Positions 12,378 to 47,382 are shown, numbered from the stretch's first letter. The stretch is DNA of 64,000 bases from Spiroplasmataceae bacterium (GCA_043756005.1 JAYUTB010000008.1:2316-66315), one strand, 5' to 3'. The notes: generated by a model from the sequence alone, not told the origin. A program made the numbers and translations.

Positions 12378-14147
12378 TTAAGATAAAATAAGATCCGCTA
12401 CATCCATTTTGACATGATTGGTCGTAATTTTATCAATTTTGCCATTTTTTACAAACACAACCGTATCAGCTAACGAAGTGATGTTTGTATTATGAGTTAC
12501 CATCACAATTGTGGTTTTTAATTTTTTATTAATATTAACTAGGATATTTAACATAATCCGTGACGTATTATCATCTAGTGCGCCAGTTGGTTCATCACAA
12601 AACAAGATAATTGGTTTTTTAGCTAACGCTCGAGCAATAGCCACTCGTTGTTGTTGTCCCCCTGATAATTGATGCGGAAATTTATATTTATGTTCAGTTA
12701 AACCAACCATCTCAATAATATCATCAACATTGGTTGATTTATCAGGATTTAAATAAGCACCTAATTGAATATTTTCCATCGCTGATAAATTATTTAAGAG
12801 ATTGTATTGTTGAAACACAAAGCTAATATTTTTTCTTCTAAATAATGTTAAATGAGCATCTTTTAAAAAAGATAAATTGTAATTATTAACAAACACATCA
12901 CCTTGCTGAGCTTTATCAAGTCCAGAAATAATATTTAATAACGTCGTTTTACCAGATCCAGAAGAACCTAAAATAACTACAAACTCGGATTGACGAATTT
13001 TAAGATTAATATCACTTAATATGCGGCGGGGCGTTACACCAGTTAAAAAATATTTATCAACATTATGTAATTCAATAATATTATTGACATCTGGTAACAA
13101 ATCACCACTAGTGCTATAAGATATTGGCTTTGGTGGCGTTTTAGAGAATTGCTTACTAGATTTTGGTTGAGGTAGAGCAGCTTCAAGTTCGTTGTCTGAA
13201 TTAATTTGATCTTCTATTGTTGATGATTCGTTAATTATTGGAGTTTTTTTAGAAAATCATTTGCGAGATGATGGTTTAGGTAGAACAGCTTCAAGTTCGT
13301 TGTCTTGATTAATTTCATGATTTAATGGTAATGATTCTTCAATGGTGGGTTGTTTTTTGGAAAATCATTTGCGCAATTTTGGTTGAGATAGAACAACTTC
13401 AAGTTCGTTGTCTTGATTAATTTCATGATTTGATGATAATGATTCTTCAATGGTGGGTTGTTTTTTGGAAAATCATTTGCGCAATTTTGGTTGAGATAAA
13501 AATGTAGAATCAACTTCATTAACTGGTTCAAATTGATTAACTAACGGTAATGAATGATCAATGATATTATTTTGAAGTTTTGAATATTTAGCAATTCGTT
13601 TATTATATTTAATGATTTTAGAAGAATATTTACGAGTTAATAAGTTATTTATTTTGATTAATTTTTTATAATCTGAAAACAAAATAATGTTTTGTTTTTC
13701 AATAAGATCTAAGTTTTGTGAATCATTTACATTGTAAAGTAAGTTTTTTTGTTTAATAAGTTTGTCGTTAGTGATGGATGATGAAAATTCATCAATGATG
13801 GGTTGTTTTTTAGAAAATCATTTGCGCGATTTTGGTTTAGATAGAGCGGTTTCAAGTTCGTTGTCTTGATTAATTTGAGCTTCTATTGTTGATGATTCGT
13901 TAATTATTGGAGTTTTTTTAGAAAATCATTTGCGAGGTTTTGATTGAGGCAGCGCAGCTTCAAGTTCGTTGTCTTGATTAATTTCATGATTTAATGGCAA
14001 TGATTCTTCAATGATGGGTTGTTTTTTAGAAAATCATTTGCGCGATTTTGGTTTTTGCAAAACAGTCGATTCGAGCTCGTTGTCTTGATTAATGTCATTA
14101 TCAGATGATAATTCATTAATTATTGGAGGGTTTTTAATTTTTTTCAT
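12378..14147 (-). CDS. ABC transporter ATP-binding protein with about 350-aa repeat-built N-terminal extension
   Basis: The C-terminal 240 aa hold Walker [10 protein letters not shown], signature LSGGQQQRV and Walker [10 protein letters not shown] checked codon by codon that the same frame stays open (TGA=Trp) up to ATG comp. 14145-14147. The start overlaps the ftsH stop by 14 nt. Confidence 0.85.
13141..13508 (-). repeat. 108-nt (36-aa) coding tandem repeat, block A, about 3.5 units
   Basis: The unit [35 protein letters not shown] recurs. Its TGA-Trp codons sit at 13257, 13365 and 13473, an exact 108-nt spacing. Confidence 0.9.
13797..14130 (-). repeat. 108-nt (36-aa) coding tandem repeat, block B, about 3 units
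   Basis: Same unit as block A. The TGA-Trp codons are at 13818, 13926 and 14034. Confidence 0.9.
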
Positions 14148-18057: not shown

Positions 18058-19131
18058 ATGATTTATAATAAAAAAACATTCTTATTAAGAAAATCTGCAT
18101 TATTGTTTGTTTTAATGCCGGTAGTAGCGATTATTACTACAGCTATTGATGAAAAAATAGATGGAACATTGATTAAAGATATAAAAGAAGAAGAAATGAA
18201 GAAATGAACAAATGCAAAAATTAAAGCATTTACGTCTGAACAGATTCGATGATTAACACCGGAACAAGTTGGATGATTGAAGAAAAAACAATTTTCAAAT
18301 TTAATAGCAAAAAAAACATTTACTGATAATGAAGTTAAAGATTTATCGCCATTTGAAATATTTATTTTATCTAAAACACAAATTGGATGATTTAAGGAAG
18401 CACAAATTGGATGATTTACGAAAGAACAAGTTGGATGATTAACAAAAAAACACTTTTCAACGTTTAATAAAAAAGAATTTAAAACTTTGTCGCCTTTTGA
18501 AATATCTATTTTATCTGAAGAACAAATTGGAGGATTTACAAAAGAACAAATTAGAGAATTGACTAAAGAACAAATTGGATGATTAACACCGGAACAAGTT
18601 AAATGATTGAAGAACAAACAATTTTCAAATTTAATAGAAAAAAAACCATTTACTAATAATGAAGTTAAAGATTTATCGCCATTTGAAATATTTATTTTAT
18701 CTAAAACACAAATTGAATGGTTTAAGGAAAAACAAATTGAATGGTTTAAAAAAGATCAAATTGGATGATTAACGTCTGAACAGATTTGATGATTAACGCC
18801 GGAACAAGTTGGATGATTGAAGAAAAAACAATTTCCAAATTTAATTGAAAACACGTCATTTAATATTAAAAATTTATCACTGTTTGAAATATTTATTTTA
18901 TCTGAAGAACAAATTGGAGGATTTACTGATGTACAAGTTAAATGATTAACATCTGAACAATTAAAAATGTTTAATTTTAAATTAAATCATAACAGTAAAT
19001 GAGATCAAACAACATGAATTGTTATGTATACATTATTATCATTATCTGCAGCGACTATTGCTGGAATTATAATCTTAATGAAATGAGAAAAAATCAAAGC
19101 AAGTTGTACAAAAAGCAAACTAAGTGATTAA
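18058..19131 (+). CDS. repeat-rich membrane-anchored surface protein (xEQ[IV]xW[LF]T octad repeats)
   Basis: AAGGAAAAA lies upstream of ATG 18058. The product has an N-terminal TM/signal helix, about 20 short repeats arranged in 3 larger super-repeats, and a C-terminal TM helix. The frame is open only with TGA=Trp (at least 15 in-frame TGA). Confidence 0.8.
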
Positions 19132-19214
19132 AAATAATTAATTCTTTATTAATTAAATAAAGTTTTAAAAAAAATTGTTAATATAAAAAATTACAAATTG
19201 ATAAAATACATTAT

Positions 19215-19924
19215 ATGTAATGATTATTGCTATTGATTATTCCCGTAATTAGTATTTTAATAACATATATTAAAAATAAAAAACCAACAGCTAATATAAA
19301 AATTGAGACTTTAACTGAGAAAGTAATAGGACAATTACAAAAACAACAAATTGAATGATTGAGAACATATCAAATTAAATGATTACAAGAAAAGCAAGTT
19401 AAAGGATTTAGTAAAGAACAAATGGGATAATTTACGAAAGATCAAGTTGGTGAATTTACCGAAAAACAAATTAAAGGATTAACCTATGAACAAATAATAG
19501 AATTTACTAAAGCTGGTTTTTTATTATTAAAAGAAAAATTTACCGATTTCATTAATAAAACAACATTTACTAATGATGAAGTTAAAAAATGATCACCGTT
19601 TGAAATTACTATTTTATCTGAAGCACAAATTGGATGATTAACCCGAGGCCAAATTCAATTATTAACCCCAGCACAAATTAAGATATTAACTAACAACCAA
19701 ATTAAACAAATGCAAACAAAATTTACCGATTTAATTAATAAAACATCATTTACTGATGCTGAAATTAGAAAATGATCACCATTGAAATTACTATGTTAAC
19801 ATCAACGCAAATTAAAGGATTAACTAACAACCAAATGAGATGATTTACTGAAGAATAAAGTAAAGCATTAACACTACCACAAATTAAGGCATTTACTAAA
19901 ATTACTTGCATGTATGATTTATAG
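19215..19924 (+). pseudogene. decayed paralogue of the 18058-19131 repeat protein
   Basis: Same repeat types (QIKWL, SPFEITILSEAQIGWLT). The start reads ATG-TAA. There are in-frame TAA codons at 19428-19430 and 19856-19858 and a 1-nt deletion near 19781 (CCATTGAAATT versus CCGTTTGAAATT). Confidence 0.7.
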
Positions 19925-21710: not shown

Positions 21711-23249
21711 TTATAAAAGTGCCTCAAACAATAGCAATAACTTTACCATAACTTTATGTGGTAATTTTAAAGTAAAATGCTTTGCTTGCACAATATAAGC
21801 TAATGAAAAATTTTGCATAAAAATATTTGCTAGCGTTTGATTAACCATTAAACCAAATGTCATCATCGACGTTTGATGATCATGAAAAAAACTTCGATAA
21901 TCCATGTTGGAAGTGGTTACTAACGAAAAATCATCATCAAATAAAATAGTTTTAGCATGATTAAAGACATGACTTGATTCATATATTTTAACACCAGCTA
22001 ATAATAAATCATCATAATAAGTGCGTGACAAGTCTAATAAAAGTATTTTATCAGTTACGTTAGGCATTAAAATTCGAACATCTACACCTGATATAGCAGC
22101 ATTTTTTAAAGCAATAACAATATCATTTGGTACAATTAAATAAGGGGTAGAAATTCAAATTCTTTGTTGCGTAGTATTAATAAATTTTAATAATAAATCT
22201 TTATAAATAATTTCAGTAATGTGGGGGCCGGTACCGATCACTTGATTAAAATTAATTGTTGTTAAATCTAAATTAGCTGATAATAGATTATTTTTTAATA
22301 ATATTGGTAAAGGTAAATGTTGTTTAGTTAATTCATATCAATCTTTTAAAAATATTAAGGCTAATGAGGTGACGGCACCACCTGTAATGCGTACTTGCAT
22401 ATCTTGTCAACAACCATATTTAGCCGATAAATTAATATAATTATCACCAATATTATACCCACCAGTATATCCAATAACGCCATCAATAATCACATCTTTA
22501 CGATGACACCGATAATTAGTTTTGTAACTAAAAAATGGTCAAGTAACATAATTGTAAAAACAAATTTCAATACCAATATTTTTCATGTTGCGTAAATTTT
22601 TATTAAACAAACCAAATCATGAACCAAAATGATCAAGGATTAAATAAATTTTAACGCCTTCACGATATTTTCTAATTAATAACGCTTCAAATGCTTTAAA
22701 ATAATAACCGTCATGAATAATAAAATAATTTAAATAAATAAATTTTTGAGCATTTGCAATGTCTTCAAACAATGCAAAAAACTTATCAATCCCATTATCA
22801 ATTAATTTAAATGTTAAATTTTGATAAAAAGGAAATTTTGTATAATTAGTCACAAAATTAATTAATAAGCTTTGCCTAGTTGATAAATCATGATTGTTAA
22901 GTAATCATTGCGTATCAGTTCATTGTTCATGATCAAATCACAATTTTTCTGCTAATAACACTTGGTCATATGTTTTACGACCTTGATATTTTTTATTAAA
23001 AATAATAAATCAAAACAGGCCAAGCATTGAAAAAACATTAATGATTAAAAATCAAGTTATTTTAAAACATGAATCACGTTTTAAATAAAAAATATATCAG
23101 GTACAACCAAAAATTAAGCAATAATTAACTAAAAAATAAATTCATAGATAACGAAGGGGAATAAAATAAAAAATACAAAAATAAAATCCACACGTTAATG
23201 CTAAAAATAAAAAAATGGTAAAAAATACAAAAAATAATTTTTGTTTAAT
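21711..23249 (-). CDS. cls: cardiolipin synthase (phospholipase D family)
   Basis: Two HKD motifs (HRKDVIIDG... and HAKTILFDDDFSLVTTSNMDYRS) and N-terminal TM helices. The pieces are joined by TGA. No in-frame ATG precedes the TM helices; the likely start is ATT (comp. 23247-23249), 8 nt after GAGGAAG. Confidence 0.85.
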
Positions 23250-23297
23250 AGTTTAATCTTCCTCTTGATAAGCTTTTTAAAAAAATATCAATTAATA

Positions 23298-23390
23298 TGG
23301 TGGAGTAAGGGGGATTTGAACCCACGCGTCATTTGCACAACCTACCTCATTAGCAGCGAGGCCTCTTCAACCGAACTTGAGTATTACTCC
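23298..23390 (-). tRNA. tRNA-Ser (anticodon GCU)
   Basis: The reverse strand GGAGTAATACTCAAG...CCTCG-CTGCTAA-TGAGG...GGGTTCAAATCCCCCTTACTCCACCA gives a cloverleaf with a long variable arm, anticodon loop CU-GCU-AA and an encoded CCA. Confidence 0.92.
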
Positions 23391-23665
23391 AATCATTACT
23401 AACGCACTAAAAAATTATAAAACAATCTTAGTTTGTTAAAATAATTATATATACATTATAAAAATAATAACAAACGACATGCACATAGAACACAATATTC
23501 AATTGTAATGTTTTAAAAACGAGTAATTCAAATTAAAAACATAAAAGAAAATTATTAAGATTTGTCTCTTTAACAAATGTTTCACTAAAGTGGGTATATT
23601 CACATGTTAGTGAATTCAAACGATATTGTTCAATTGTTTTTTATTTATCAAAAAATCATAAAAAT

Positions 23666-23697: not shown

Positions 23698-25343
23698 ATG
23701 TTTATGAACAAATTACTTAAATTATTCCCGATTGCAATAATTGCGCCTATGTTGGCGTTGACTTTTACTTCAGCAGTTGTTACACCTAAAGCTGAGGGTC
23801 ATTTTAAATATATTAACAACTCCATTACATTTAATGGTAAAACTTATTCAACCGATAATTTCAACTCACACAATCAAAGAATTTTAAAAATCAGTAGTGT
23901 GGAAATTATTATTGATAAACCGACAAAAGATTTTGTTTTTTACACAATTAATGGTGTTGATTATTTATATGTTGAAAAACAAAACACACTAATTAATTTA
24001 TCAACCAGTACAAAAGATTCTTACGTAATATATGGTGGAAAACTAAAAGTTTTTAATATCTTGGGGGGGTAGATTATATATTATATTGATATGGATCGCA
24101 CTGAATTTTTTCAACCATCGATCACCTAAAATATTGATACCCTACTGATGAAGTAAATTCTGTTGAAATTCTTGATGGCACTCACATTCAATTGAAATTG
24201 AATAATTCAAAATATGTTTGTTTAAATTTAAACTTACACAATAAAGTTATATCAAGTGATAATTCATTTTGAAAAGTATTTATTGATAATGAAACTGTAT
24301 TTTTAGGATATATATTTTATAATGCTGATTTAAATGAGCATCCAATTTTTAAAACTCCAATATATATGTCTGTATGAGAATACTCAAATATATACATTAA
24401 AAAAGACTTATCTGGGGGCTTGTTTGATTTCACAACAAGACTTACTTCAAAATCTATACAAAAATGCTCGTCTTATAAACCAATAACAATTGACGGCATT
24501 AAATTATTCATGGTAACTGTTGATAATAAACAAGAATTTTATGATGTTGATTTAAATAAAAAAGATGAATACAGTATTAAAATTCTTCACAATAACAATT
24601 ACATTGAACGAACTGTTGCTGATGTTAAAACGTTATTCAAGTTTGATGATGGCGCAAAAATTACATCAATCCTAGATTACAAAAAACTTGAAGAACGAAC
24701 CGTTGATACCGTTAAATTATTAATGGTAACTGATGCAAGTGATGGTGTAAAATTTTATAAGGATAGCGATCAAGCTTTAAATGGTAACTACACAACAATC
24801 AAACCGCAAGACACAAAGTACATTAAACGAACCGTTGATGGTGTGAAAACTTTATTCAAACTTGATGGCACATCAATTACAGATTACAAAGAACTTGAAC
24901 CACGAACGATTGATACCGTTAAATTATTGATGATAACTGATGCAAGTGACAATGTAGCATTTTATAACGATAACGATCAAGTTTTAAATAAAAACTACAA
25001 GTCAAGCACTCTGCATAACACAACTTACATTGAACAAACCGTTGGTGATGTTAAAACGTTATTCAAATTTGATGATGGCGCAAAAATTACAACAATCTCA
25101 AATTACGAAAGCATTAAACCAATAAAAAGCTTATTTAAAAAGAAATACTTAGAAGTAACTAACATTGAAAAAACAGTTGATTGATATAGTAGTATTAGTG
25201 AAGGCAAAAAAGATGATTTTAAAAAAACCTCTGGTATTATAAAATATCAGACTCCAATTGTAATTGGAGCTTCGGTTGGTTCAGTAAGTGTTGGTGCTTT
25301 AATTACTGCATTAATTTTAATTATTAAAAAACGTAAAAAATAA
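23698..25343 (+). CDS. variable surface protein, split by a frameshift at a G7 tract (apparent OFF state)
   Basis: The signal-peptide ORF 23698-24072 stops just after G7. The frame starting at 24069 is open (TGA=Trp) to TAA 25341-25343 and ends in a TM helix plus KKRKK. One extra G fuses the two parts (about 548 aa). Confidence 0.75.
24063..24069 (+). repeat. poly-G (G7) homopolymer at the frameshift point
   Basis: The sequence CTTGGGGGGGTAG can be read directly. Confidence 0.95.
24601..25110 (+). repeat. coding tandem repeats of about 205-220 nt (YIExTVxDVKTLFKxDG...TVDTVKLLM[VI]TDASD)
   Basis: About 2.4 units are visible in both protein and DNA (24601, 24823 and 25027 all begin TACATT[GA]AAC[GA]AAC). 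Confidence 0.85.
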
Positions 25344-25661: not shown

Positions 25662-25780
25662 TACTAGCAATTGATAGATAAGTTGAGTTTATTATGGTTC
25701 AGCCGTTCCTTGATCAATATTTGATGTTGTTATGATAAAAATATCTTCTTTTACATAAGTTGTTTTTACTTTTTATATAT

Positions 25781-26353
25781 AAAAAGGAAATTTTGTATAA
25801 TTAGTCACAAAATTAATTAATAAGCGTTACCTAGTTGATAAATCAGGATTGTTAAGTAATCATTGCGTATCAGTTCATTGTTCATGATCAAATCACAATT
25901 TTTCTGCTAATAACACTTGATCATATGTTTGACGGCCTTTATAGTTTTTATTAAAAATAATAAATCAAGTTATTTTAAAACATGAATCATGTTTTAAATA
26001 AAAAATATATCAGGTACAACCAAAAATTAAACAATAATTAACTAAAAAATAAATTCATAGATAACGAAGGGGAATAAAATAAAAAAATGGTAAAAAATAC
26101 AAAAAATAATTTTTGTTTAATAGTTTAATCTTCCTCTTGATAAGTTTTTTTAAAAAAATATCAACTAATATTGTTGAATAAGGGGATTTGAGCCCATCCG
26201 TCATTTGCACAACCTACCTCATTAGCAGCGAGGCCTCTTCAATCGAACTTAAGTATTACTCAAATCATTACTAACGTACTAAAAAATTATAAATAATCTT
26301 AGTTTGTTAAAATAATTATATATACATTATAAAAATAATAACAAATGACATTC
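25781..26353. repeat. degenerate second copy of 22826-23483 (cls 5' end + tRNA-Ser + flank)
   Basis: The two regions align by eye along their whole length, with scattered substitutions and two deletions of about 40 bp. The copies are direct repeats bracketing 23484-25780. Confidence 0.9.
26171..26262 (-). pseudogene. tRNA-Ser(GCU) relic inside the duplicated segment
   Basis: The anticodon arm is identical to the 23298-23390 copy. The 3' CCA is changed to ACA, the acceptor stem is altered, and the T-loop reads GCTCAAAT instead of GTTCAAAT. Confidence 0.65.
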
Positions 26354-26516
26354 AATAAAGACAACAACAATAACACCAGATAAAGCTAATTTTTTTAAAA
26401 AATTAATTACTAATAATTCTTTGTTATGCATAAAATGAATAACAATTTAATTAATCTTTGAAATTATAAATAATTAATAAAACTCAAATCGCTTTTATAA
26501 CAATTTGTTTGTATAT

Positions 26517-27423
26517 TTTATTTTTGACGTTTTTTAATAATAAAAACTAATGCTGTAATTAAAGCAATAATACCTAGTGAAACAGGTAATCCAATTGTTA
26601 AAAGTTGGTTATTTGTATCAGTTTTTGACGTTTCTTGAGCTTTTGGTATTGGTTGAGTGTCTGAAGTTTTTGGTTTTTCTTGAACTTTTGGTATTACTTT
26701 AGTTTCTGAAATTTTTGGTATTGGTTGAGTTTCTGAAGTTTTTGGTGTTGCTGGAGTGTCTGAAGTTTTTGGTATTGGTTGAGTTTCTTGAGCTTTTGGT
26801 ATTGGTTGAGTGTCTGAAGTTTTTGGGGTTGTGGGTTTGTTTATTGTTACATTTTTAACAATTGTATTTTGAAATTTTAATTCAATTTGATCATTTGGTA
26901 ATTCGTTTATTGAATCAATATCATTTGCAATTTCATAACTGATTGAATGGTCTATTTTTGAAAATAAAATTTTTTGATCTTTAATATATGTTATTCAATC
27001 ACCTTCAGTTAAAGAAAAAACTTTTGGAAGATTTTTAATCTTATCATCTGCTTTTCCGGTTGTTAAATTTATAAAATAATTAGAAGTGACTTTGGAACCA
27101 AAACTATCTATAAATAAATAATCATTTTTATCAATCGTCAAAAAGAACATTTTGGTTTTGTAGTCTTTTACATCATCAGGAATATAATAAAAATCATCTT
27201 TATTTAAAATAATTGCATAATATAGATTACCTCATCCCCCTCATTTTCTTTTCTCTATTTTATATGTTTTGTCATTATATTCAATTTCTTCTATAATTCT
27301 TTTATTGTCACTAAATGTTTCAAAATCAGTGAATGATTTTTGCTTAATATCTGCTGAAAATAAAGTAATAACTAAAACTGGTACAACAATAATTGGTAAT
27401 ATATTTTTCAATAATTTTTTCAT
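26517..27423 (-). CDS. surface protein with Pro/Thr/Lys-rich repeats; C-terminal membrane anchor out of frame
   Basis: ATG at 27423, signal peptide MKKLLKNILPIIVVPVLVITLFSA. The frame checked codon by codon ends at TAA 26533-26535. The anchor SLGIIALITALVFIIKKRQK* (to 26517) lies in the adjacent frame after the A4/T4 run at 26579-26582. Confidence 0.7.
26590..26830 (-). repeat. imperfect 27-30-nt coding repeats (PIPK[TA][SQ][DE]TQ)
   Basis: GGTATTGGTTGAGT[GT]TCTGAAGTTTTTGG-type units are repeated about 7 times. Confidence 0.8.
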
Positions 27424-27493
<70 letters not shown>

Positions 27494-27584
27494 ATTTGAT
27501 TGATTTAGTTTGATATTTTAGAGGTTGTTATGTTATTTTTAAAATCAAAAAACTAACTAATGTTTAATATGTTAAAATTTATGC

Positions 27585-29263: not shown

Positions 29264-29366
29264 AATTGCATAATTTGTCATATTTTGATATATAAATGTC
29301 ATAATTAATGACGTGCTTTATAAACTACACTTTGTAAAGCACTTTATTTAATAATCATTATCACGA

Positions 29367-29669
29367 TTAAAAATTATTTTTTCATTGCGTTAGCACATTA
29401 ATAAATAATATTACAAACGTTTCCGTTAAAAAGGCAATCATGATGCCTAAACAAAATCATTTTAATGATTTGATTGTTTCTTGTCTTTCTAAGCCTTGCG
29501 TGGCATATATTTTAATACCAATAATAATGCCACGAATTACCGCAAATAAACTAGTAATCACTAATAAAGCAGAAATAATACCATTACAAATGTTTTTAAT
29601 AGTGATTAATAATTCATTATTCGCTAATGTCATATTCATCATGGTCGTCATCATCAGTTCATGCATCAC
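29367..29669 (-). CDS. small two-TM protein, last gene of the T4SS-like cluster (possibly pilin/VirB2-like)
   Basis: Track ORF 29457-29669 extends through TGA to TAA 29367. About 100 aa with two hydrophobic helices. It overlaps the 3' end of the upstream gene. Confidence 0.5.
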
Positions 29670-32001
29670 TTTCTAATTGATCAGCATTAATAATCAATGC
29701 TCTTTTATTTCTGTTACGGATATAAAAACAAATGATAATTAAACCCACAAAAAATATCATCGATCCGGCTACTACGCCAAACAAGATCATCAGATTAGTT
29801 CAGGTGATTTGTTCATCAAGTTGAGCTTGATATTTGTTATAAGCATTAATGATTATTTCCTCATATTTTTTTTGTAAATTTAAATAATTGTCACGGGCTG
29901 CTTTAGATATTGGTCGGGTTCAATTATGGAGTTTTAAGATAATTGCTTCTTTAGTTTGCCAATCTTTAAAGTGGGCGTTTTTAAAACCATCATCGATTTG
30001 TGCTGTTAAAAAAAGCTTGGCTTTAATAATCGTTTTTTCTAAGATGCCTTTGGTTCAATGATTTCAAAAATTACTGAAAGTAATAAAAGAAGATATGGTT
30101 GTGTCGTTGATATCTATTACATCACGCACAATGTTTTGATGTTCATAACCGTTGACATTTAGTAATTGATGTTTTATAAAAGCGGCGGTTAATTGGGGAT
30201 GATAGTTAGTAATATTTGTTAATCAACTGTGCATTTGATGATGATGTTGATTTTTAATAATATTAAGTTGATGAGTTAACATTTGATGATCAAGTTGATT
30301 GATGGTGGCATCATCAATGTTAAAAAACTTGACTCATGTTAATTGACGAGGTGTAATATTGTTGGGTACTTGATCACTACCAAGTTGTAAATAAAAATCT
30401 TGGTGTTGGTGGTTGATTTTAACAACGGTTAATTTTAATAAAGTAGTATTTAAACCTGGTTGATTATATAAATTTTTATTGACAACCTGATCACTGAGTG
30501 GTAATGGTTTTCAAATATCTTTTTCTTTGATCGATAATTGGGTTGATTTTATAAAATGAGGAAATTTATTTTGCAGCTGGATTTGTTGATGGGGGGTGTA
30601 ATAAATTTTGACCGTTTGCTGATCAATGGTTCTTCATACATAATCTTTAATTAAATTATTTTTGGCTCAAAAAAAATTTTGAGCTAAGGCTTTATTAAAT
30701 AATGTAAAATTGATAATTTTAGTATTACCATATTGATCGTTAACAACGATTTTATAATCATTAGGTTGCGTAAAGGTAAACATGATTTGATTATTTTTTA
30801 AGGTAATTTGATATGGTAGTTTGGGTGATGAATTTTTAATCACAATTTTGTTAGCAATTGTGATAGCTGGTTCACCATTAATGATGATGTTTTTAAGAGT
30901 ATTATCAAGTAAAATATGTCAATTAATTTGATCGTCAAAGTAATATGCAGTTTTTTTAACATTTTGTTGATCAGTAAAATAAGTAATTAACTGATCGGTA
31001 GTGTTGTGATAATGATATAAATATTGATAAATATTATTGTGTAAGGTAATTTTTGTTTTATCAAAGCTGTTAATATAAAATGGTTTTTGAAGAGGCGGAA
31101 TTAATTGATTATTGATGGTTACAAAGAAATAATAATGTTTATCAACGTGTTGACTGTTGATTTGATCAACTAACATGGTCGTTTGAAATTGATTTTGTTT
31201 GGTGAAAGTGAGTTTTTGTTTTTTTCATGGTGATTTATTACCAGCACGAAAATTTAATTCAAAAAATAAATGTTTGAGAACTTGATTAGTAAAATGTTTG
31301 CTATGATGAGTTAGTTTAAAGGTTAGTTTAAATGGTTTATTTTTGAAAATTGGTTGAGGTTGCTGGTTAAGACTAGTAACATTTGTTTGATGAACATTAT
31401 CATCAACAGCAGTAATATTTAGTTGCAGATCATTGAAATCGACCAATAAAGCATAATCTTTTTTTAACAACGATGTGTTATCGCTCGGATATCAAGTGAC
31501 TTCTTTGCCATCTTCTGATAAAGGTTGATCTTTAGGATATCGATATCAATACCACACACCACCACTGGGTAGTCATAAATTAACTCGTAAATTACTTAAA
31601 TACATATTTTTTTTATCAAATCTGATGTCGGGGGCGTGAAAATTAGCTCAGGATACTTTTTGAGCAGGCTTGTCTAAATCAGTAATTGATTTACGATATC
31701 AAGCTTTACAATGTTGTGTTCTTTCGCCACGCAATCATCCATAAGCGACATGACATTTATTAATGGATCAATCAACTCAATCATCTTTACGAAAATAAAG
31801 ATAATTATCATTAATACGCACTTCTTGTCAATGAGCTGAATCTTTAAGCAGTTGTTTTTTCTTAAAAGCACCACTCACTAAATACCAAGCGTTATTTTCT
31901 CAGATGACAGCAACATCAGTATGAATTAATAATGATTGGTTTTTTATAGGTGGGGAGAGATGTTGCGATGATAAAAAAAAATTATTATTAATAATCACCA
32001 A
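29617..32001 (-). CDS. large Trp-rich protein with C-terminal TM anchor and acidic tail (about 794 aa)
   Basis: A single frame traced codon by codon from TTG/GVG near 31996-32001 to TAA 29617, with many TGA. It includes track ORFs 30919-31176 and 31225-31470. C-terminus: MILFGVVAGSMIFFVGLIIICFYIRNRNKR...DDDDHDEYDISE. No family recognised. Confidence 0.6.
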
Positions 32002-32029
32002 AGTTGTTTAATAAATTTAATAGTACGAA

Positions 32030-33091
32030 TTATTTTTTAAACACCCCTCTTTTTAATTTTTTAATGATGCTACTCATTTGTTGTGTTTCGTAACTTAAAT
32101 TTCCTTTTATTTTGAAAACTTGATCATAAACATGTTGCGCTCTTACTAAAAAAATGCCGGAGGCAATCAATAATAATAATTTTAAAATGACATTTGCAAA
32201 AAAATCATCTTTGTTAAAAATCATGAAATGATTGATGGTATATAATTTACTAATGACTGATATAAAAATAAATAAATTCAGATTTAAACCAAAAATTAAT
32301 AAGGTTTTTGACACAAGGGTGGTTTGTCAATTTTTAAAATGCTTACCACCATCATAAGCAATTCACGCAATTGCCAGTGGTCCTAATAAAAACAACAGTA
32401 ATATTTCAAACATTCTTTGAATTAAACAAAGACACATTGATGTTAATGTTCAAATAATAACACCTGCTCCAATCATCACTATGATGTTGTGAAATTGATG
32501 TTTTTGATCATAACTTCATTGGTAGTTTAAAGTAATATTAGTGATCTCAGCTTCGGTCATTAATTGATGAGGTGTAAAACCGGATTGATAAATTTTATCA
32601 GCAATAATATTAGTATCTAAACTGTTATGATGTTGAAAAATAGCCCCCATTAACAAAAAAATATAATTATTAATGGTGATAAACAACATTGGAAAGGTAA
32701 TGATAAAAATAATAGCCACAAAAACATGTTTAATAATATTGTTTATTTTTCATGATTCTTGATTAGTAAATAAAAGATTAATTACTTTTAATATTGCCGC
32801 TAACATAATGACACCACCTGCTAGGATGGAAATAATCATATAAAAGAGATTGTGCTCGTTCATGTTTAATTCATGTAACATTCATTTAAAAAATTGTTCG
32901 CCTAATAAATAGTTAAAAACTATACCAATTTTTTGCACGATTTTTAATAGAAACATGGTAATTTGAAAAATCAAATTATAAAACCATGTATTTCATCATG
33001 CTGCATTTGGTCCAATATTTAATGAAGTACATATGATCAGCAACACGATTATCAAAAACATTTTTAAACAATAACGACCGCGTCGTGACAT
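32030..33091 (-). CDS. polytopic membrane protein (VirB6/TrbL-like position)
   Basis: ATG at 33091. Track ORFs 32030-32314 and 32516-32719 share a frame joined by TGA. At least 6 hydrophobic helices. It lies directly downstream of the VirB4-like gene. Confidence 0.6.
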
Positions 33092-33101
33092 ATTATTAAA
33101 T

Positions 33102-35597
33102 TTAAAACAGATCTTTTTCATATTGATCAACTGTAATTTTTACTTTATTCATGATATTGTCTGAAGCAATTAATAAACACTCACCACGGTGTAATTGATT
33201 AATTTGTGAAATCACCAGTTGGTTTTTAATTGATTTTTTTAAAAGAGTATCAAAATTATTAACATCACCATCATTTAAATTAAAAACCAACATGGTTTGC
33301 GCGTTGTTTAAAATACTTTCGGTTTTAAAACTATGGCTAATATTGACGAAATCTTTAATGTTTTGACTAATAATAATTGTGCCACCTTGATATTTTCTAA
33401 TGCGTTTTGTTAAATTAAAAATAAAATTAAGGGGTTGATAGTGATAATTATCGGCAAATTGATTGATTAAAACATGAGCTTCATCAATCACAATGTATAT
33501 ATAATGAGATTGTTGATTGAGTTGATTAGCTAAGCGATTTTTTAAAACTTCTTTTTCAACATAATAAAAAATTAAAAACAACAATGCTTTACTAAATGAA
33601 TTGTTATAACTAGTTTGTAAAGAACTAATATCAAATAATGTAATACTTTTTTGTAAATTTAAATTAGTATGACAATTAAAATAACTGGTTTTGGTAAGTA
33701 AGGGTTTGAATAATTCAGCTAATTCAAGATTAATTTTGGTTGCTTCACAAACTAAGCAATTATATAAATCTTGCAAAACTGGAAAATCAGCGCTGGTTAA
33801 ATAAGCAAGCTCACTAAAATTATCAATTTCTTTATCTTTATACATTTGATATAAAAAAGTCGTTAATACATCAAGTTTGGTTTTATTTAAAAAAGGAAAT
33901 AAAATATTAAATCAGATTTGTAAAAAAGCAATATGATTGTCCAACTTTAAATGATTGTCAAAATATATTTCAAAAGGATTAATATAAATATTTTTATTTT
34001 GAAAATCAATAATATCACCTTTTAATGAAGTGACAATGTTGCGATATTCTTGTTCTGGATCAATAATGATGATTTTGTTTTGATTTAAAACAGCTTGTTT
34101 AATAATTTTTTTAGCCGCAATTGTTTTTCCTGAACCACTTTTACCAAGAATAACGATATTATGATTAATCCGTTGTTGATTTAAAAGATCAGGATTAAAG
34201 ATAATATGACTTTGATTTTGTTGATTAATACCTAATATTAAACCTTGTTTATCTTGATATTTTTCATATGCAAAAGGTCAAAACGCAAATCAAGTAGTTG
34301 ATAATATTTCTTGATGATGATAATTATAAAATAATGGGCGAGGTTGATTTCATTGCAGGCATTGTTTTAAAGCAGTGGATTGTTCAAAAAATAATTCGTT
34401 AATCATGAAGTTTTGTAGTTGTAATTGATTAGTAATTTGAGTAAATGTTTGTTTTAATTGTTTTTTGTTATCGGCTTTGATAACAAAAAACAAATTAGTT
34501 GCATAAATTTCTTGATTAGTGGTAGCAACTTCATTAATAATTTTTTCAAAATTTGTTTGCAAAGAATGATGTTGATTAATCAATTTGTCGGTAGTGTCAG
34601 TTGCTAAATTATTGATGGCTTTGGTAACTTGTTTTTGAAAATTAAGTTTATTAATGGTGTGTCATGACATGTAATAGTTTAAATTAGCTAATGATTCATA
34701 TTTTGATAATCATTGTGGCGAAATATGAACTGGGTAATCTTCAATAGTAAAAAATTTATAATAAGTAGTATTAATTTTTAAGCAATTAAATTTACTAGTA
34801 ATTTTAACGTTCAAATCGGTAACGTTATAAAAATTTAATAATATTTTGATAGTTTCAGGAGCGGCCAATATTTTTGGAAACAACGGCAAATCATGATTAT
34901 TTAACAAAGCTTTATGTTCTTCAAAAGCAATTTTTAAATTTTTTTGATCAGGACTAGTTAAAATAATACTTATTAAAGGTTCAGTTAAAGTGGTTGTTAA
35001 GTTTTGGTATTTTGCTAATTCCAACATTAACAAATGTTTATAATCTTGATTGGTAACTATTAATTGTTGAATGTAATCAATTTGATCTTGTCAATTTAAT
35101 GGTTGGGTTAATTTAACAATATTAATGTTAATGTTATGTTTTTCGATTAATTTGAATGAATTAGTGATGATTTGAATTAATTGGTTTTTTTGCTGATCGT
35201 TAAAATTATGGAGATTATAATGATTGATAGTTAAAAACATTACGTAGTTGTGATTGATTTTAATAGTTTCATGGTTATTAAGTGGTTCTTGAAAAATTGA
35301 TCAGATTTTATTAAAAGTTAGGGTTTTTATTTTTTTAATTAAAAATAAAAACATGAGAATTAATAATTTATAACCTTTGATGTTGAAGGTGGGAATATTA
35401 ATTACCAACATGAAACATAAACTAAATCAAAAACACATGATCATGATTTTGATTCAAAATAACACATGAAATTTAAAAATTAAAAAAGCTAGTAAAATAA
35501 AGATAAAAATTAAACAACCATCGGGCAATGTAAAATTTTTAAAAATCTTTAATTTAATTTTGTTAATTTTTTTACATATTAAATATTCATGATTCAT
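33102..35597 (-). CDS. VirB4/TraE-like type IV secretion ATPase with N-terminal TM (VirB3-like) segment
   Basis: Four track ORFs in one frame (831 aa). Walker A ILGKSGSGKT, IIIDPEQEY and Walker B YIVIDEAHVL are typical of the VirB4/TrsE/TraE family. Two to three N-terminal TM helices. Confidence 0.85.
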
Positions 35598-35875
35598 ATA
35601 ACAACCACATATTATATATCTCTTAAAATGCAAACTTTTCCTTAAATATTTTTTTTATTTAAAAAAAATATTTATATAACGCAATGAAAATAATCTATGT
35701 TGGGAGATAATTATAGGTAAACAAAAACTAATTAATGTTTATTTTGATAAAAAACAATGCAAGATGTGTAATAAAAATTATTTATTGTTGGCCTTTTTAA
35801 TATGTTGATAAATAGATTGTTTAACGATGGAATGGTAATTATTGGTGATGTTTTAATCAAAATCAACATAAAAAC

Positions 35876-35935
35876 TTGACTTTATATATATATATATATA
35901 AAATAAAAATAACTTATGTAAAGGAAGTTATTTTT
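35876..35935 (+). promoter_or_regulatory. promoter/leader cassette with (TA)9 and SD-overlapping hairpin
   Basis: TTGACT 35876-35881, (TA)9 35883-35900 (17-nt spacer to TAAAAT), AAATAAAAA, hairpin AATAACTT/AAGTTATT 35908-35932 overlapping AAGGAAG, ATG 35936. Confidence 0.7.
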
Positions 35936-36178
35936 ATGAAAAAATTATTGAAATTTACAAACCTAAATAAAGTAGTTTTATTTAGTTTGGTGACAATTCC
36001 GGTAGCTGCTATTTTAATGACGGCAAATGCTTGTCAAGGACCAACAGGACCAGCAGGATCTAAAGGTGAAACAGGAGCAGTAGGACCTAAAGGTGAAACA
36101 GGAGCAGTAGGATCTAAAGGTGAAACAGGAGCAGTAGGACCTAAAGGTGAAACAGGAGCAGTAGGACCTAAAGCGTAA
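35936..36178 (+). CDS. small collagen-like (Gly-X-Y)n putative lipoprotein
   Basis: [33 protein letters not shown] (signal peptide ending in Cys) is followed by 15 uninterrupted G-X-Y triplets ([18 protein letters not shown]...). SD AAGGAAG lies upstream and a strong terminator follows. Confidence 0.75.
36065..36172 (+). repeat. 27-nt tandem repeat x4 (GETGAVG[PS]K)
   Basis: GGTGAAACAGGAGCAGTAGGA[CT]CTAAA starts at 36065, 36092, 36119 and 36146. Confidence 0.95.
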
Positions 36179-36660: not shown

Positions 36661-36899
36661 TTATTGTATAGAAGATATACATTGTTTTTCATTTTTCAAT
36701 CCTACAATATAAAGTCTTTCTCTGTTTTGAGGCATATTTGAATAATTAGTTGTATTTATAATTTTGAATTTGATGTATATCTTAAATCTATTAATTTGTT
36801 TAAAATAGTAGCAAACGTTTCTTCGTTTTTATGAGGTTTTAAATTTTTCACATTTTCTAAAAAATTTTGGTTGTAATTTTTGAACAATTTTAAATACAT
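36661..36899 (-). pseudogene. relic of a C5 cytosine DNA methyltransferase (motifs VI-VIII only, frameshifted)
   Basis: Reverse frames give ...NFLENVKNLKPHKNEETFATILNKLIDLRY then, after a frameshift, IKFKIINTTNYSNMPQNRERLYIVG. These are the ENV and PQxRxR motifs of Dcm-type enzymes. The N-terminal AdoMet/PCQ motifs are absent. Confidence 0.6.
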
Positions 36900-36914
36900 C
36901 AAAAATTAAATCAC

Positions 36915-46424: not shown

Positions 46425-47382
46425 TTAGTTGTTGTTTTGAGCTGCTTTTAATTTTGCATCGGCTTCATCTAATGTTTGTTGAGCTGTTTTTAATTTTGCA
46501 TCAGCATCGTCTAATTTATTTTTACTTTCTAATCAACTTGATGAGTTGTTGAAATTTAAATTTGCAAAATCAATTGTTTGGTTAAATTTACTTAAAATAG
46601 GTTTGATATATGATGGAGAATATATATTATTCAATACTTGTAAAACATAAATTGATGATCAATTTTGATTTTTGATTGCATTAATTACATTAAATTCATT
46701 TTTTACAAACATAATATTAAAATTATTATCACTCGATTTTGGAATGAATAATGCAAGTAATTCTTTTAGTGCTGTTGTTTTTGTTTTTTCATCGGTTGCG
46801 TTAATTCATTTATCTAATAATGTTTTTTTAGCAGTATCTGTTGCAGGCATTAATGCTGTAAGTAATGTTTTTAGTGCGTTTATTTTTTCTGTTTCATCGG
46901 TTGCGTTAATTCATTTATCTAATAATGCTTTGTGATCTTTTGCTAATGCTTTAAGTAATTGTAGTAAAGAATTTTCGGTTGTTGCGATATTTGATGCTGG
47001 ATTTATAAATAATTGAAAATATGTTCTGCTTTTATCTCCACTTTTTGATAAAATTTTATTTAAATTTGTTGTTAAATTAGATTGTTCGGTTTGTAAATAA
47101 AATTTATAATTAAATATTGATTTAAGTAAATCTAAATCTAAAATTTTAGAATTTAAGAAATTTGAATTTATAATATTAAAATTTTGTTGAGCATGTTGTT
47201 GGTTTGTTTTTGCATGTTGTTGGTTTGTTTTTGCATGTTGTTGGTTTTTTATTGCATCATCTAATTCTTTATCAACACCTCAACAATTTTTTGCTGATGT
47301 TGAAATAACAACTGCCGGTATTGTTATCAAACTAAATAAAACAACTTTATTTAAGTTTGTAAATTTCAATAATTTTTTCATA
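46425..47382 (-). pseudogene. putative surface lipoprotein, frame broken inside the signal peptide at a T5 run
   Basis: ATG 47382 gives [16 protein letters not shown]. After removing one T at comp. 47338-47342 the frame reads LFSLITIPAVVISTSAKNC... and stays open to TAA 46425. It contains NQQHAKT x3 and LLDKWINATDE x2 repeats. Confidence 0.7.

What the first reader, a model, noticed from the sequence alone, without database searches (positions are those of the whole stretch)
29367..35597. Minimal type IV secretion-like gene module without mobility genes, in a wall-less bacterium
Four co-oriented, tightly packed genes:
- An 831-aa VirB4/TraE-type ATPase (GKSGSGKT, DPEQEY, DEAH) with fused N-terminal TM helices (VirB3-like arrangement).
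- A 353-aa polytopic membrane protein.
- A roughly 794-aa Trp-rich tail-anchored protein.
- A roughly 100-aa two-TM protein.

Mycoplasma ICEs are known to encode TraE(VirB4) and TraG(VirD4) homologues plus a DDE recombinase. I could recognise no coupling protein, relaxase, recombinase or inverted/direct ICE ends between ybeY (29263) and the collagen-like gene (35936). The module is wedged among essential genes. It may be a domesticated or stripped-down secretion or DNA-transfer apparatus, or an ICE remnant. All four frames are intact despite many TGA codons, which argues for function.
Basis: partly seen in the sequence, partly recalled or inferred. Interest (0 to 1): 0.75.

Follow-up and report, generated by a model that had tools for sequence, protein, structure and literature searches.

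The report
Stripped-down chromosomal type IV secretion core
A wall-less bacterium with no sequenced close relatives carries four intact genes from the membrane-channel part of a mycoplasma-type DNA-transfer machine, but none of the genes that would make the unit mobile, so it is either a repurposed transport device or an unusually well-preserved relic.

Summary
Read with code 4 (TGA=Trp), window 29367-35597 (minus strand) holds four tightly packed intact genes.

- g1 is a VirB3-like two-helix anchor fused to a VirB4 ATPase (NCBIfam Mollicute family NF045975, E 5e-129).
- g2 is a polytopic protein of the mycoplasma-ICE CDS16 family, distantly VirB6/TrbL-like.
- g3 is a 793-aa orphan with one C-terminal helix.
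- g4 is a 2-TM pilin-like protein.

I found no coupling protein (VirD4), relaxase or recombinase anywhere in the 64 kb. The only flanking repeat comes from paralogous surface-protein genes, not element ends.

The module has host-like composition. Its VirB4 is the most divergent member of the family but keeps 44 of 45 near-invariant positions. A decayed cytosine-methyltransferase fragment lies next to it, which suggests a larger element eroded around an intact core.

Similar small modules sit among housekeeping genes, often beside dnaA or rpmH, in other code-4 genomes. All of those keep VirD4.

Verdict: a new variant of a known kind, namely a chromosomally fixed Mollicute T4SS core with no coupling protein in the window. 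It is probably still functional and repurposed (about 0.45). An inert remnant (0.3) or a system split across the genome (0.2) cannot be excluded.

The parts
33102..35597 (-). g1: VirB3-like two-helix membrane anchor fused to a VirB4-type ATPase (831 aa)
   Evidence: NCBIfam NF045975 VirB4_plasma scores E 5e-129 and 431 bits (cut-off 590) over residues 6-831. CD1110-type VirB4 scores 2.8e-47 and TraC 5.9e-26. Pfam hits are P-loop_TraG, DUF87 and TrwB_AAD_bind. The best PDB match is 4AG5 VirB4, 7.6e-21. TM helices lie at ORF residues 41-78. The protein keeps 44 of 45 columns that are at least 90% conserved in 47 relatives.
32030..33091 (-). g2: polytopic membrane protein of the mycoplasma-ICE CDS16 (Mbov_0396) family, distantly VirB6/TrbL-like (353 aa)
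   Evidence: NF045889 scores 9.7e-31 and 107 bits, above its cut-off of 70. NF045848 scores 5e-27, above its cut-off of 90. There are about 7-8 TM segments. Homologues lie next to VirB4 in Spiroplasma, L003, L089, L087 and many Firmicute loci. One of those homologues hits Pfam TrbL/VirB6 at 1.4e-6.
29617..31998 (-). g3: orphan 793-aa Trp-rich protein with no N-terminal signal peptide, one C-terminal TM helix followed by a basic cluster and an acidic tail
   Evidence: It has no family hit in Pfam, NCBIfam, PHROGs or PDB sequences. Only itself was found among 5.8 billion protein clusters. It has no paralogue in the window and no internal repeat. The single-sequence AlphaFold model is unusable (pLDDT 35). 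It occupies the slot held by large C-terminally anchored surface proteins in L003, L089 and L091, but is not detectably homologous to them.
29367..29633 (-). g4: small two-TM pilin-like protein (88 aa; up to 99 aa with the start at 29666), overlapping the end of g3
   Evidence: NF045849 (Mbov_0395 pilin-like) scores 5.8e-6 and 25.9 bits, below its cut-off of 40. Pfam T4SS_pilin scores 1.3e-3. phmmer gives 2e-6 to 4e-3 against the small two-TM proteins next to VirB4 in L091, L090, L089, L003 and L087. In the six-sequence pilin alignment that includes g4, 5 of the 6 hit Pfam T4SS_pilin at E <= 0.01, the best at 3e-9.
35598..35935 (.). AT-rich intergenic region upstream of g1, the presumed promoter region of the four-gene operon; it is shared with the divergent collagen-like gene and contains a (TA)n tract
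   Evidence: This is read directly from the sequence. Sigma-70-like hits exist, but they are no more frequent than in shuffled sequence (70 found against 72 expected), so the promoter is inferred, not shown.
29313..29342 (.). Hairpin between the convergent ybeY and g4 genes, a likely bidirectional terminator at the end of the operon
   Evidence: The terminator-like scan reports a 12-bp stem with a T-run. It is one of 6 hits in the region against 1.9 expected from shuffles.
36664..36909 (-). Pseudogene fragment of a C5-cytosine DNA methyltransferase (in-frame stop, only motifs around QxRxR left), a relic of accessory DNA next to the module
   Evidence: Pfam PF00145 scores 6e-8 and 32.9 bits (cut-off 22), covering profile positions 90-166 of 324. 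tblastn with the methyltransferase next to the L003 T4SS cluster gives 1.7e-5.

Best explanation
The module is the membrane-channel core of a Mollicute-type (monoderm, MPF-FATA-related) conjugative type IV secretion system. It has become a fixed chromosomal operon and no longer has any machinery nearby that would make it mobile or couple it to DNA.

Proposed working, which is inferred rather than shown:
- g1 forms the hexameric VirB4 motor, held in the membrane by its own VirB3-like hairpin.
- g2 forms the polytopic VirB6-like channel.
- g4 supplies small pilin-like subunits that line or extend the conduit.
- g3 is a lineage-specific, C-terminally anchored partner. If exported, it would act as the contact or adhesion component. 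If it stays inside, it would be a membrane-tethered cytoplasmic receptor standing in for the missing coupling protein.

No VirD4, relaxase or recombinase is present in 64 kb, yet all four genes are intact. I therefore think the translocon is retained for a function other than self-transfer, such as contact-dependent export or import of protein or nucleic acid. Relaxase-less chromosomal T4SSs have been proposed to work this way in Patescibacteria.

What is shown: homology of g1, g2 and (weakly) g4; operon-like packing; absence of mobility genes in the window; host-like composition; a conserved ATPase core.

What is inferred: assembly, activity, substrate and the role of g3.
For: The window VirB4 retains Walker A, DPExEY, Walker B (DEAH), RKY and QN. 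It keeps 44 of 45 columns conserved at 90% or more in 47 relatives, ranking 32nd of 48, so it is no worse than VirB4s in complete conjugative clusters.

The four ORFs total 6.2 kb, are intact and are translationally coupled. The adjacent methyltransferase gene, by contrast, has decayed to a 246-bp fragment.

GC content, GC3 and codon usage of g1-g4 fall within the range of 42 other window genes, which points to long residence.

No VirD4 homologue was found: phmmer with two Mollicute VirD4s against all window ORFs of 40 aa or more gave nothing at E <= 10. No relaxase or recombinase family appeared in Pfam or NCBIfam scans of the sizeable ORFs.

There is precedent for chromosomal retention. Two Spiroplasma ixodetis-clade genomes carry a syntenic T4SS core between ffh and pgsA with dN/dS of 0.12-0.29, the same as the flanking housekeeping genes. 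Other code-4 genomes carry it beside dnaA or rpmH.

Literature precedent also exists. Patescibacteria have chromosomal relaxase-less T4SSs in which the T4CP homologue is dispensable (PMC12102498). T4SS genes are expressed in host tissues by S. ixodetis (PMC8025503).
Against: Selection cannot be measured. No relative of g1 closer than about 31-34% identity exists among 1.84 billion representative proteins, and g3 has no relative at all.

Every comparable chromosomal module found in other Mollicute-like genomes keeps VirD4 within about 4 kb. The window's lack of it could simply be an early step of decay.

g3 has no signal peptide although its C-terminal topology suggests an exported protein. That may mean it is N-terminally damaged.

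g1 scores below the curated family cut-off (431 against 590) and g4 below its own cut-off.

There is no expression evidence, and promoter-like matches are at chance level.

Only about 64 kb of a 67-kb contig was seen. The rest of the genome is unknown.
Confidence: 0.45

Rival explanations
1. Inert remnant. The four genes are what is left of an integrated conjugative element or plasmid whose coupling protein, relaxase, recombinase and restriction-modification genes have already been lost. The survivors are not yet disrupted but do nothing.
For: A methyltransferase pseudogene fragment and 736 bp of non-coding DNA lie next to the module. VirD4 is missing, although it is adjacent in every related module examined. 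g3 lacks a signal peptide. The VirB4 is the most divergent family member, 431 bits against 521-793 for the others. Vestigial ICEs are well documented in mycoplasmas (PMC12205969; PMC6030558).
Against: In a 27% GC genome, TAA and TAG arise easily, yet 2,065 codons across four genes carry no disruption. The catalytic core of VirB4 is as conserved as in active relatives. Composition is fully host-like, so the genes have been resident long enough for decay to have occurred, as it did for the neighbouring methyltransferase.
Confidence: 0.3
2. Split conjugation system. The module is the mating channel of a still-functional DNA-transfer system whose coupling protein, relaxase and recombinase are encoded elsewhere in the genome or on a plasmid.
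For: In L091 the VirD4 gene is already separated from VirB4 by two permease genes. In Patescibacteria and many conjugative systems the T4CP gene is often far from virB4 (PMC12102498). In the mycoplasma ICE, the homologues of g4, g2 and g1 (CDS15, CDS16, CDS17) are each required for conjugation (PMC6030558).
Against: Nothing of the kind lies in 64 kb of surrounding sequence. The gene order (VirB4, VirB6-like, orphan, pilin) differs from the pilin, VirB6-like, VirB4 order seen in L003, L087, L089 and L091. The CDS14-type lipoprotein essential for mycoplasma conjugation has no homologue here.
Confidence: 0.2
3. Recent horizontal acquisition. The module is part of a currently mobile element whose ends lie at the 94-nt inverted repeat (27383-27476 and 35883-35976).
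For: An inverted repeat 77% complementary brackets metK, ybeY and the module. The Logan contig breaks exactly at both arms.
Against: The arms are the (TA)n-containing promoters and signal-peptide 5' ends of two paralogous surface-protein genes. The bracketed segment includes the housekeeping genes metK and ybeY. Module composition equals that of the host. No recombinase is present.
Confidence: 0.03

Closest known systems
Conjugative-channel module of mycoplasma integrative conjugative elements (ICEA of M. agalactiae, ICEB of M. bovis): CDS15 (Mbov_0395, pilin-like), CDS16 (Mbov_0396, membrane protein), CDS17 (TraE/VirB4, Mbov_0397)
   Same: g4, g2 and g1 hit exactly these three NCBIfam families. 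The VirB4 carries the same N-terminal membrane hairpin, with the profile aligned from position 2. In ICEA all three are needed for transfer (PMC6030558).
   Different: The window has no TraG/VirD4 (CDS5), no DDE recombinase (CDS22), no CDS14 lipoprotein, no CDS1/CDS19/CDS30 and no element ends. The gene order is VirB4, VirB6-like, orphan, pilin. The related loci examined here (L003, L087, L089, L091) instead run pilin, VirB6-like, VirB4, and the consecutive Mbov_0395-0397 locus tags suggest the same order in ICEB. g1 scores 431 bits, below the 590-bit cut-off, and g4 is also below its cut-off.
Small chromosomal T4SS modules in other code-4 Mollicute-like genomes found here: Spiroplasma ixodetis NZ_AP028955 and Spiroplasma endosymbiont of Harpalus anxius OZ187007 (L006, L004); uncultured lineages L087, L089, L091
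   Same: Each has a VirB3/4 fusion, a VirB6-like protein and a pilin-like protein in one short operon among housekeeping genes. L089 and L091 add a large C-terminally anchored protein. No relaxase or integrase family is on record (precomputed Pfam hits) in the flanks of L087 and L089, although L091 carries a helicase-like gene downstream of VirD4. The flanks of L004 and L006 were judged only from ORF identities.
   Different: All of them keep a VirD4 coupling protein within about 4 kb. Their large surface proteins are homologous to each other (1e-17 to 1e-21) but not to g3. Several lie directly beside dnaA or rpmH, whereas the window module lies beside dnaB and ybeY.
Chromosomal, relaxase-less T4SS of Patescibacteria (PMC12102498)
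   Same: It derives from the monoderm MPF-FATA class, is chromosomal, usually has no relaxase and has pilin-like partners. The T4CP homologue is often remote, and in one studied strain it was not essential while other T4SS genes were. A function other than conjugation has been proposed.
   Different: It belongs to a different phylum and a different VirB4 clade (about 24% identity). The Patescibacterial system is widespread across its phylum and has genetic evidence of function. The window module is known from a single genome.
T4SSs that work without a coupling protein: Helicobacter pylori ComB (DNA uptake), Bordetella Ptl, Brucella VirB
   Same: These are VirB4-powered systems with no VirD4 (Ptl and Brucella VirB are cited in PMC12102498; ComB is from general knowledge).
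   Different: They are diderm MPF-T systems with VirB7-10 outer-membrane complexes. They show no specific sequence relationship to this module.
Firmicute MPF-FATA conjugation modules (Tn916/CD1110-type, ICEBs1, pCF10)
   Same: VirB4 is followed by a VirB6-like polytopic protein in the same order as here. g1 hits the CD1110 VirB4 family at 2.8e-47. g2 homologues flank VirB4 in many Firmicute loci.
   Different: No cell-wall hydrolase and no VirB8-like protein were detected here. The system also lacks the FtsK/VirD4 coupling protein and the relaxase.

Membership tests
VirB4-based type IV secretion system (monoderm/Mollicute type) | VirB4-family ATPase with intact nucleotide-binding motifs | tested here: met
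   NF045975 scores 5e-129. Pfam hits are P-loop_TraG and DUF87. PDB 4AG5 scores 7.6e-21. Walker A and B motifs are present, and 44 of 45 near-invariant columns are kept.
VirB4-based type IV secretion system (monoderm/Mollicute type) | VirB3-like membrane anchor for VirB4 | tested here: met
   There are two N-terminal TM helices. The family profile aligns from position 2, so the fusion is a family trait.
VirB4-based type IV secretion system (monoderm/Mollicute type) | VirB6/TrbL-like polytopic channel protein next to VirB4 | tested here: met
   g2 scores above the cut-offs of NF045889 and NF045848. Its homologues are adjacent to VirB4 in many loci. The link to Pfam TrbL is only transitive, with 1 of 6 homologues hitting at 1.4e-6.
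VirB4-based type IV secretion system (monoderm/Mollicute type) | Pilin-like small two-TM protein | tested here: inconclusive
   g4 is below the curated cut-offs (NF045849 25.9 bits against 40; PF18895 19 bits against 26.6). It does match the pilin-like proteins of five related loci at 2e-6 to 4e-3.
VirB4-based type IV secretion system (monoderm/Mollicute type) | Type IV coupling protein (VirD4/TraG/TcpA) | tested here: not met
   There is no hit at E <= 10 with two Mollicute VirD4 queries against all window ORFs of 40 aa or more. None appears in the family scans. The rest of the genome was not available.
Mycoplasma integrative conjugative element (MICE) | VirB4 (CDS17) reaching the curated family score | tested here: not met
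   The score is 431 bits against a 590-bit cut-off. L003, L089 and L087 are also below it, while Spiroplasma L004 and L090 are above it.
Mycoplasma integrative conjugative element (MICE) | DDE (Mutator-like) recombinase CDS22, TraG-like CDS5 and CDS14 surface lipoprotein | tested here: not met
   No such family appears in NCBIfam or Pfam scans of g1-g4 and of the other sizeable window ORFs. g3 has no lipobox and no detectable homology to anything.
Mycoplasma integrative conjugative element (MICE) | Terminal inverted repeats and target-site duplication bounding the element | tested here: not met
   The only long inverted repeat is the 5' region of paralogous surface-protein genes, and it encloses metK and ybeY.
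Conjugative system (any) | Relaxase and origin of transfer | tested here: not met
   No relaxase family was found in any ORF scanned within the 64 kb. An oriT cannot be recognised without the relaxase family.
Co-opted chromosomal T4SS (as proposed for Patescibacteria) | Chromosomal location without relaxase | tested here: met
   Housekeeping genes run for at least 27 kb on each side, and composition is host-like.
Co-opted chromosomal T4SS (as proposed for Patescibacteria) | Vertical conservation under purifying selection, expression, and a phenotype | not testable with these tools
   No relative of this organism is available: housekeeping proteins are singletons at 90% identity and RecA relatives reach at most 57%. 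The only second copy is identical. The analogous Spiroplasma module does show dN/dS of 0.12-0.29.

The most novel reading that the evidence does not exclude
Host-dependent Mollicutes have repeatedly fixed the channel core of their conjugative T4SS in the chromosome, frequently right beside the replication origin (dnaA or rpmH), and use it for something other than conjugation, in parallel with Patescibacteria. The window module has no coupling protein within the 64 kb and carries a lineage-specific 793-aa partner with no detectable relatives. It would be the most derived example: a VirB4/VirB6/pilin translocon working without any T4CP in a single-membrane cell.
Probability: 0.25. Interest if true: 0.75.

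Novelty: new variant of a known kind. Interest (0 to 1): 0.5.

Why it matters
Mycoplasma-type T4SS genes have so far been discussed mainly as parts of ICEs and plasmids that drive conjugation and chromosomal transfer. A stand-alone core with no coupling protein nearby, kept intact in a reduced genome, would show two things. First, the three-protein translocon (VirB3/4, VirB6-like, pilin-like) can be retained without its DNA-processing partners. Second, wall-less bacteria may use it for contact-dependent exchange with a host or neighbour.

Together with the origin-proximal modules seen in other uncultured Mollicutes, this yields a testable comparative hypothesis and a very small candidate system for studying T4SS function across a single membrane. 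If it turns out to be only a remnant, it is an ordinary example of ICE erosion.

Tried and rejected
It returned neither the window's own genome nor any Mycoplasma ICE. Only the two Spiroplasma loci were useful.

2. I tried to place the organism. Housekeeping proteins are singletons at 90% identity. The RecA search gave generic hits at 57% identity or below, to Erysipelotrichaceae-like sequences. The NCBI record name could not be retrieved. The lineage remains unnamed.

3. Structure prediction of g3 without an alignment gave pLDDT 35, so I ran no fold search.

4. I tested homology of g3 to the large anchored proteins of L003, L089 and L091. Profile and HH comparisons were negative except for a chance-level match over the TM region.

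5. I considered the 94-nt inverted repeat as possible element ends and rejected it, because it is the shared 5' region of paralogous genes.

6. I suspected that the 413-aa membrane protein at 54992-56233 might be an FtsK-like coupling protein. Pfam and NCBIfam give no support, and it has no P-loop.

7. Promoter scans are uninformative in this AT-rich DNA: 70 hits against 72 expected.

8. The neighbour-joining tree of VirB4 places the window on a long lone branch next to the L003/L089/L086 clade. The tree is too crude to rely on.

Full report
**The window and the observation**

The window is AT-rich (27% GC) and reads through only with translation table 4. On the minus strand between 29367 and 35633 there are four consecutive intact ORFs.

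- g1 spans 33102-35597 and encodes 831 aa.
- g2 spans 32030-33091 and encodes 353 aa. Its ORF is open up to 33130.
- g3 spans 29617-31998 and encodes 793 aa.
- g4 spans 29367-29633 and encodes 88 aa, or up to 99 aa with an earlier start.

The four genes contain 10, 8, 22 and 2 in-frame TGA codons respectively. Spacing is tight: 10 nt between g1 and g2, 31 nt between g2 and g3, and an overlap of at least 17 nt between g3 and g4. This is operon-like packing.

A hydropathy scan gives the following membrane segments.

- g1 has two N-terminal helices.
- g2 has about 7-8 helices.
- g3 has a single helix at residues 739-757, followed by RNRNKR and an acidic tail.
- g4 has two helices.

A hairpin with a T-run lies between the convergent ybeY and g4 genes (29313-29342). 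An identical 8449-bp contig (window 27457-35905) exists in a Logan assembly of run SRR23617201. It may derive from the same data and offers no sequence variation.

**What the genes are**

g1 matches the NCBIfam Mollicute VirB4 family NF045975 ('Mbov_0397 family ICE element conjugal transfer ATPase') over its whole length, including the N-terminal membrane hairpin. The match is E 5e-129 at 431 bits, below the curated cut-off of 590.

- It matches the CD1110-type VirB4 at 2.8e-47 and F-type TraC at 5.9e-26.
- Its Pfam hits are P-loop_TraG, DUF87 and TrwB_AAD_bind.
- Its C-terminal domain matches the solved VirB4 of Thermoanaerobacter (4AG5) at 7.6e-21.

g2 scores above the cut-offs of NF045889 ('Mbov_0396 family ICE element transmembrane protein') and NF045848. 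Its homologues lie next to VirB4 in Spiroplasma and in many Firmicute loci. One of them hits Pfam TrbL/VirB6.

g4 gives sub-threshold hits to NF045849 ('Mbov_0395 family pilin-like conjugal transfer protein', 5.8e-6) and to Pfam T4SS_pilin (1.3e-3). It also matches the small two-TM proteins adjacent to VirB4 in five related loci at 2e-6 to 4e-3. In the six-sequence pilin alignment that includes g4, five of the six hit T4SS_pilin.

g3 has no hit in Pfam, NCBIfam, PHROGs or PDB sequences.

- It has no relative among 5.8 billion protein clusters other than itself.
- It has no paralogue in the window and no internal repeat.
- Its single-sequence AlphaFold model is unusable (pLDDT 35).

**What is absent**

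I scanned all sizeable ORFs of the window against NCBIfam and/or Pfam. They are housekeeping genes or lineage-specific surface proteins.

The housekeeping genes include rny, recA, pgsA-cinA, spoU, glpX, an ABC ATPase, argS, cls, metK, ybeY, gdpP, parA/parB, nusB and an HD-domain protein. Others were recognised by eye, such as ftsH, dnaB, rplI, rpsR, ssb and rpsF.

No relaxase, recombinase, transposase or further ICE family appeared. phmmer with two Mollicute VirD4 proteins against every window ORF of 40 aa or more found nothing at E <= 10.

The only long repeat bracketing the module is a 94-nt inverted repeat, 77% complementary, at 27383-27476 and 35883-35976. It is the (TA)n-containing promoter plus signal-peptide 5' end of two paralogous surface-protein genes, and it encloses metK and ybeY as well. 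It is not an element end.

**Signs of history**

GC, GC3 and codon usage of g1-g4 fall inside the range of 42 other window genes. The module is therefore not a recent arrival from a compositionally different donor.

Between g1 and dnaB lie an 80-aa collagen-like ORF (Pfam Collagen 1.7e-8) and 736 bp without an ORF. Inside that stretch, directly after the dnaB stop, is a fragment of a C5-cytosine DNA methyltransferase with an in-frame stop. It lies at 36664-36909 on the minus strand. Pfam PF00145 scores 6e-8, above its cut-off, covering profile positions 90-166 of 324. tblastn with the methyltransferase next to the L003 T4SS cluster gives 1.7e-5.

Related T4SS clusters (L003, L089) carry methyltransferase or restriction genes beside the T4SS. 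The simplest reading is that a larger accessory element once sat here. Its non-T4SS genes eroded while the four T4SS genes stayed intact.

**Relatives**

An exhaustive HMMER search of 1.84 billion representative proteins found 2745 VirB4 relatives. None is closer than about 31-34% identity. The organism itself has no close sequenced relatives: six housekeeping proteins are singletons at 90% identity, and RecA relatives reach at most 57%, apart from one unnamed short-contig hit (P0167, 445 bits) whose identity was not reported.

All Mollicute-like VirB4s I compared fall in NF045975. Their scores are:

| Locus | Score (bits) |
|---|---|
| Spiroplasma L004 | 793 |
| L090 | 786 |
| L087 | 582 |
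| L089 | 523 |
| L003 | 521 |
| window | 431 |

The window protein is thus the most divergent. Even so, it keeps 44 of 45 alignment columns that are at least 90% conserved in 47 relatives, and 81% of the columns conserved at 80% or more. That is within the range of VirB4s from complete conjugative clusters.

**Genomic contexts of the relatives**

- L003 holds the nearest VirB4. It looks like a mobile element: ParA, a 1100-aa protein with a signal peptide and a C-terminal anchor, a pilin-like protein, a TrbL-like protein, VirB4, VirD4, and restriction-modification genes.
- L089 and L091 have the same core (a large anchored protein, pilin, VirB6-like, VirB4) immediately beside dnaA.
- L087 has pilin, VirB6-like, VirB4 and a short VirD4 between nusG and rpmH-rnpA-yidC.
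- Two genomes, Spiroplasma ixodetis and the Spiroplasma endosymbiont of Harpalus anxius (L006, L004), carry VirB4, pilin, VirB6-like and VirD4 between recA-rny-ffh and pgsA. The module is syntenic in both. Its dN/dS is 0.12-0.29 and dS is 0.29-0.69, indistinguishable from the flanking housekeeping genes.

Small T4SS cores embedded in housekeeping DNA are therefore recurrent in code-4 genomes, and in Spiroplasma they are under purifying selection.

Every one of these modules keeps VirD4 within about 4 kb. In L091 it is displaced by two permease genes. The window module is the only one without VirD4. It also has a different gene order and an unrelated large partner: the large proteins of L003, L089 and L091 are homologous to each other at 1e-17 to 1e-21 but not to g3.

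**Interpretation**

Homology places the module firmly in the Mollicute branch of monoderm conjugative T4SSs. In the M. agalactiae ICE, the homologues of g4, g2 and g1 (CDS15, CDS16, CDS17) are each required for transfer and are thought to form the mating channel (PMC6030558).

The module fails the defining tests for an ICE or a conjugative system. The window holds no coupling protein, relaxase, recombinase or element ends.

I judge it most likely (about 0.45) that it is a chromosomally fixed core, with no coupling protein in the window, that still assembles a membrane translocon and serves a non-conjugative function. Four findings support this:

- the ORFs are intact;
- the ATPase core is conserved;
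- the composition is host-like;
- the neighbouring gene has decayed while these have not.

Published and newly found parallels exist.

- Patescibacteria have chromosomal, relaxase-less, often origin-proximal T4SSs of the same monoderm class. In the one strain studied, the T4CP homologue was dispensable while other T4SS genes were essential (PMC12102498).
- S. ixodetis expresses T4SS genes in host tissues (PMC8025503).

The main rivals are an inert, not-yet-disrupted remnant (0.3) and a split conjugation system whose other parts lie elsewhere (0.2). The remnant reading is supported by three points:

- VirD4 is lost here;
- g3 has no signal peptide;
- vestigial ICEs are frequent in mycoplasmas.

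**The role and topology of g3 are unresolved**

Its C-terminal helix followed by a basic cluster resembles the anchors of the exported large proteins of L003, L089 and L091. However, it has no N-terminal hydrophobic segment, and the ORF cannot be extended upstream because the g2 stop codon is 31 nt away. It is therefore one of three things:

- a tail-anchored cytoplasmic protein;
- a protein exported by an unknown route;
- an N-terminally damaged gene.

**Limits**

- Selection on the window genes cannot be measured.
- No expression evidence is available.
- Promoter scans are at chance level.
- Only about 64 kb of a 67-kb contig, and none of the rest of the genome, could be examined.
- The VirB4 tree is a crude neighbour-joining tree with long branches.

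**Verdict**

This is a new variant of a known kind and is of moderate interest. The interest would rise considerably if the whole genome lacks a coupling protein and the operon is expressed.

Noticed in passing
window 36664-36909 (minus strand): There is a pseudogene fragment of a C5-cytosine DNA methyltransferase with an in-frame stop, directly after the dnaB stop codon. It is followed by about 490 bp of ORF-free DNA. Pfam PF00145 scores 6e-8.
   Followed up: yes
window 22824-23483 and 25779-26354: A direct duplication of about 660 bp (91-98% identity) contains the 5' end of the cardiolipin synthase gene, its upstream region and a tRNA-Ser(GCT). This gives two tRNA-Ser genes, at 23298-23390 and 26173-26263. 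The copies bracket two surface-protein genes (23698-24072 and 24192-25343), which looks like an insertion or duplication event at the tRNA.
   Followed up: partly
window 27383-27497 and 35872-35976: Inverted copies of a (TA)n-containing promoter plus signal-peptide coding region belong to paralogous surface-protein genes (MKKLLK...). They point outward from the metK-ybeY-T4SS block. A third paralogue lies at 46425-47381. The short-read assembly breaks at both copies. The (TA)n tracts could make expression phase-variable.
   Followed up: partly
window 35936-36178 (plus strand): An 80-aa ORF has a signal peptide, a possible lipobox Cys and GXY collagen-like repeats encoded by a 27-nt tandem repeat (4.9 copies, 95% identical). 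It ends right after the repeats, so it may be truncated or length-variable.
   Followed up: partly
window 18058-19131 and 19214-19796: A Trp-rich repeat protein (Pfam ALTTAQ repeat 1.7e-17; 16 of its 18 Trp codons are TGA) has 24/48/144-nt tandem repeats. Similar repeat-coding sequence, broken into short ORFs, follows in the next 834-bp 'gap' and is probably a decayed paralogue.
   Followed up: no
L089 5134-14179; L091 5374-18008; L087 8382-13890: In three unrelated uncultured code-4 genomes, a short T4SS core with VirD4 sits immediately beside dnaA (L089, L091) or rpmH-rnpA-yidC (L087), that is, at the replication origin. L089 and L091 have a large anchored protein, pilin, VirB6-like and VirB4. 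L087 lacks the large protein. The same placement was reported for Patescibacteria.
   Followed up: partly
L004 9424-16510 and L006 9415-16516: Spiroplasma ixodetis and the Spiroplasma endosymbiont of Harpalus anxius share a syntenic chromosomal module of VirB4, pilin, VirB6-like and VirD4 between ffh and pgsA. Its dN/dS is 0.12-0.29, the same as the neighbouring housekeeping genes. In L006 recA just upstream is interrupted by transposase genes, while the T4SS module is intact.
   Followed up: yes
L091 (NCBI GCA_040777225.1, contig JBEVUZ010145577.1): This locus has 18% GC and uses code 4. It carries dnaA, a ThsB-TIR gene and the T4SS core, and it lies in what looks like a very large, probably eukaryotic-host, assembly. 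It is presumably an undescribed Mollicute symbiont.
   Followed up: no
window 3043-4149 and 12378-14147: Two unusual gene architectures appear. One is a fused pgsA-cinA gene (CDP-alcohol phosphatidyltransferase plus CinA domains in one 368-aa ORF). The other is an ABC ATPase with a 350-aa N-terminal extension made of repeated 'NQDNELE...PKSRKWFSKK' units.
   Followed up: no
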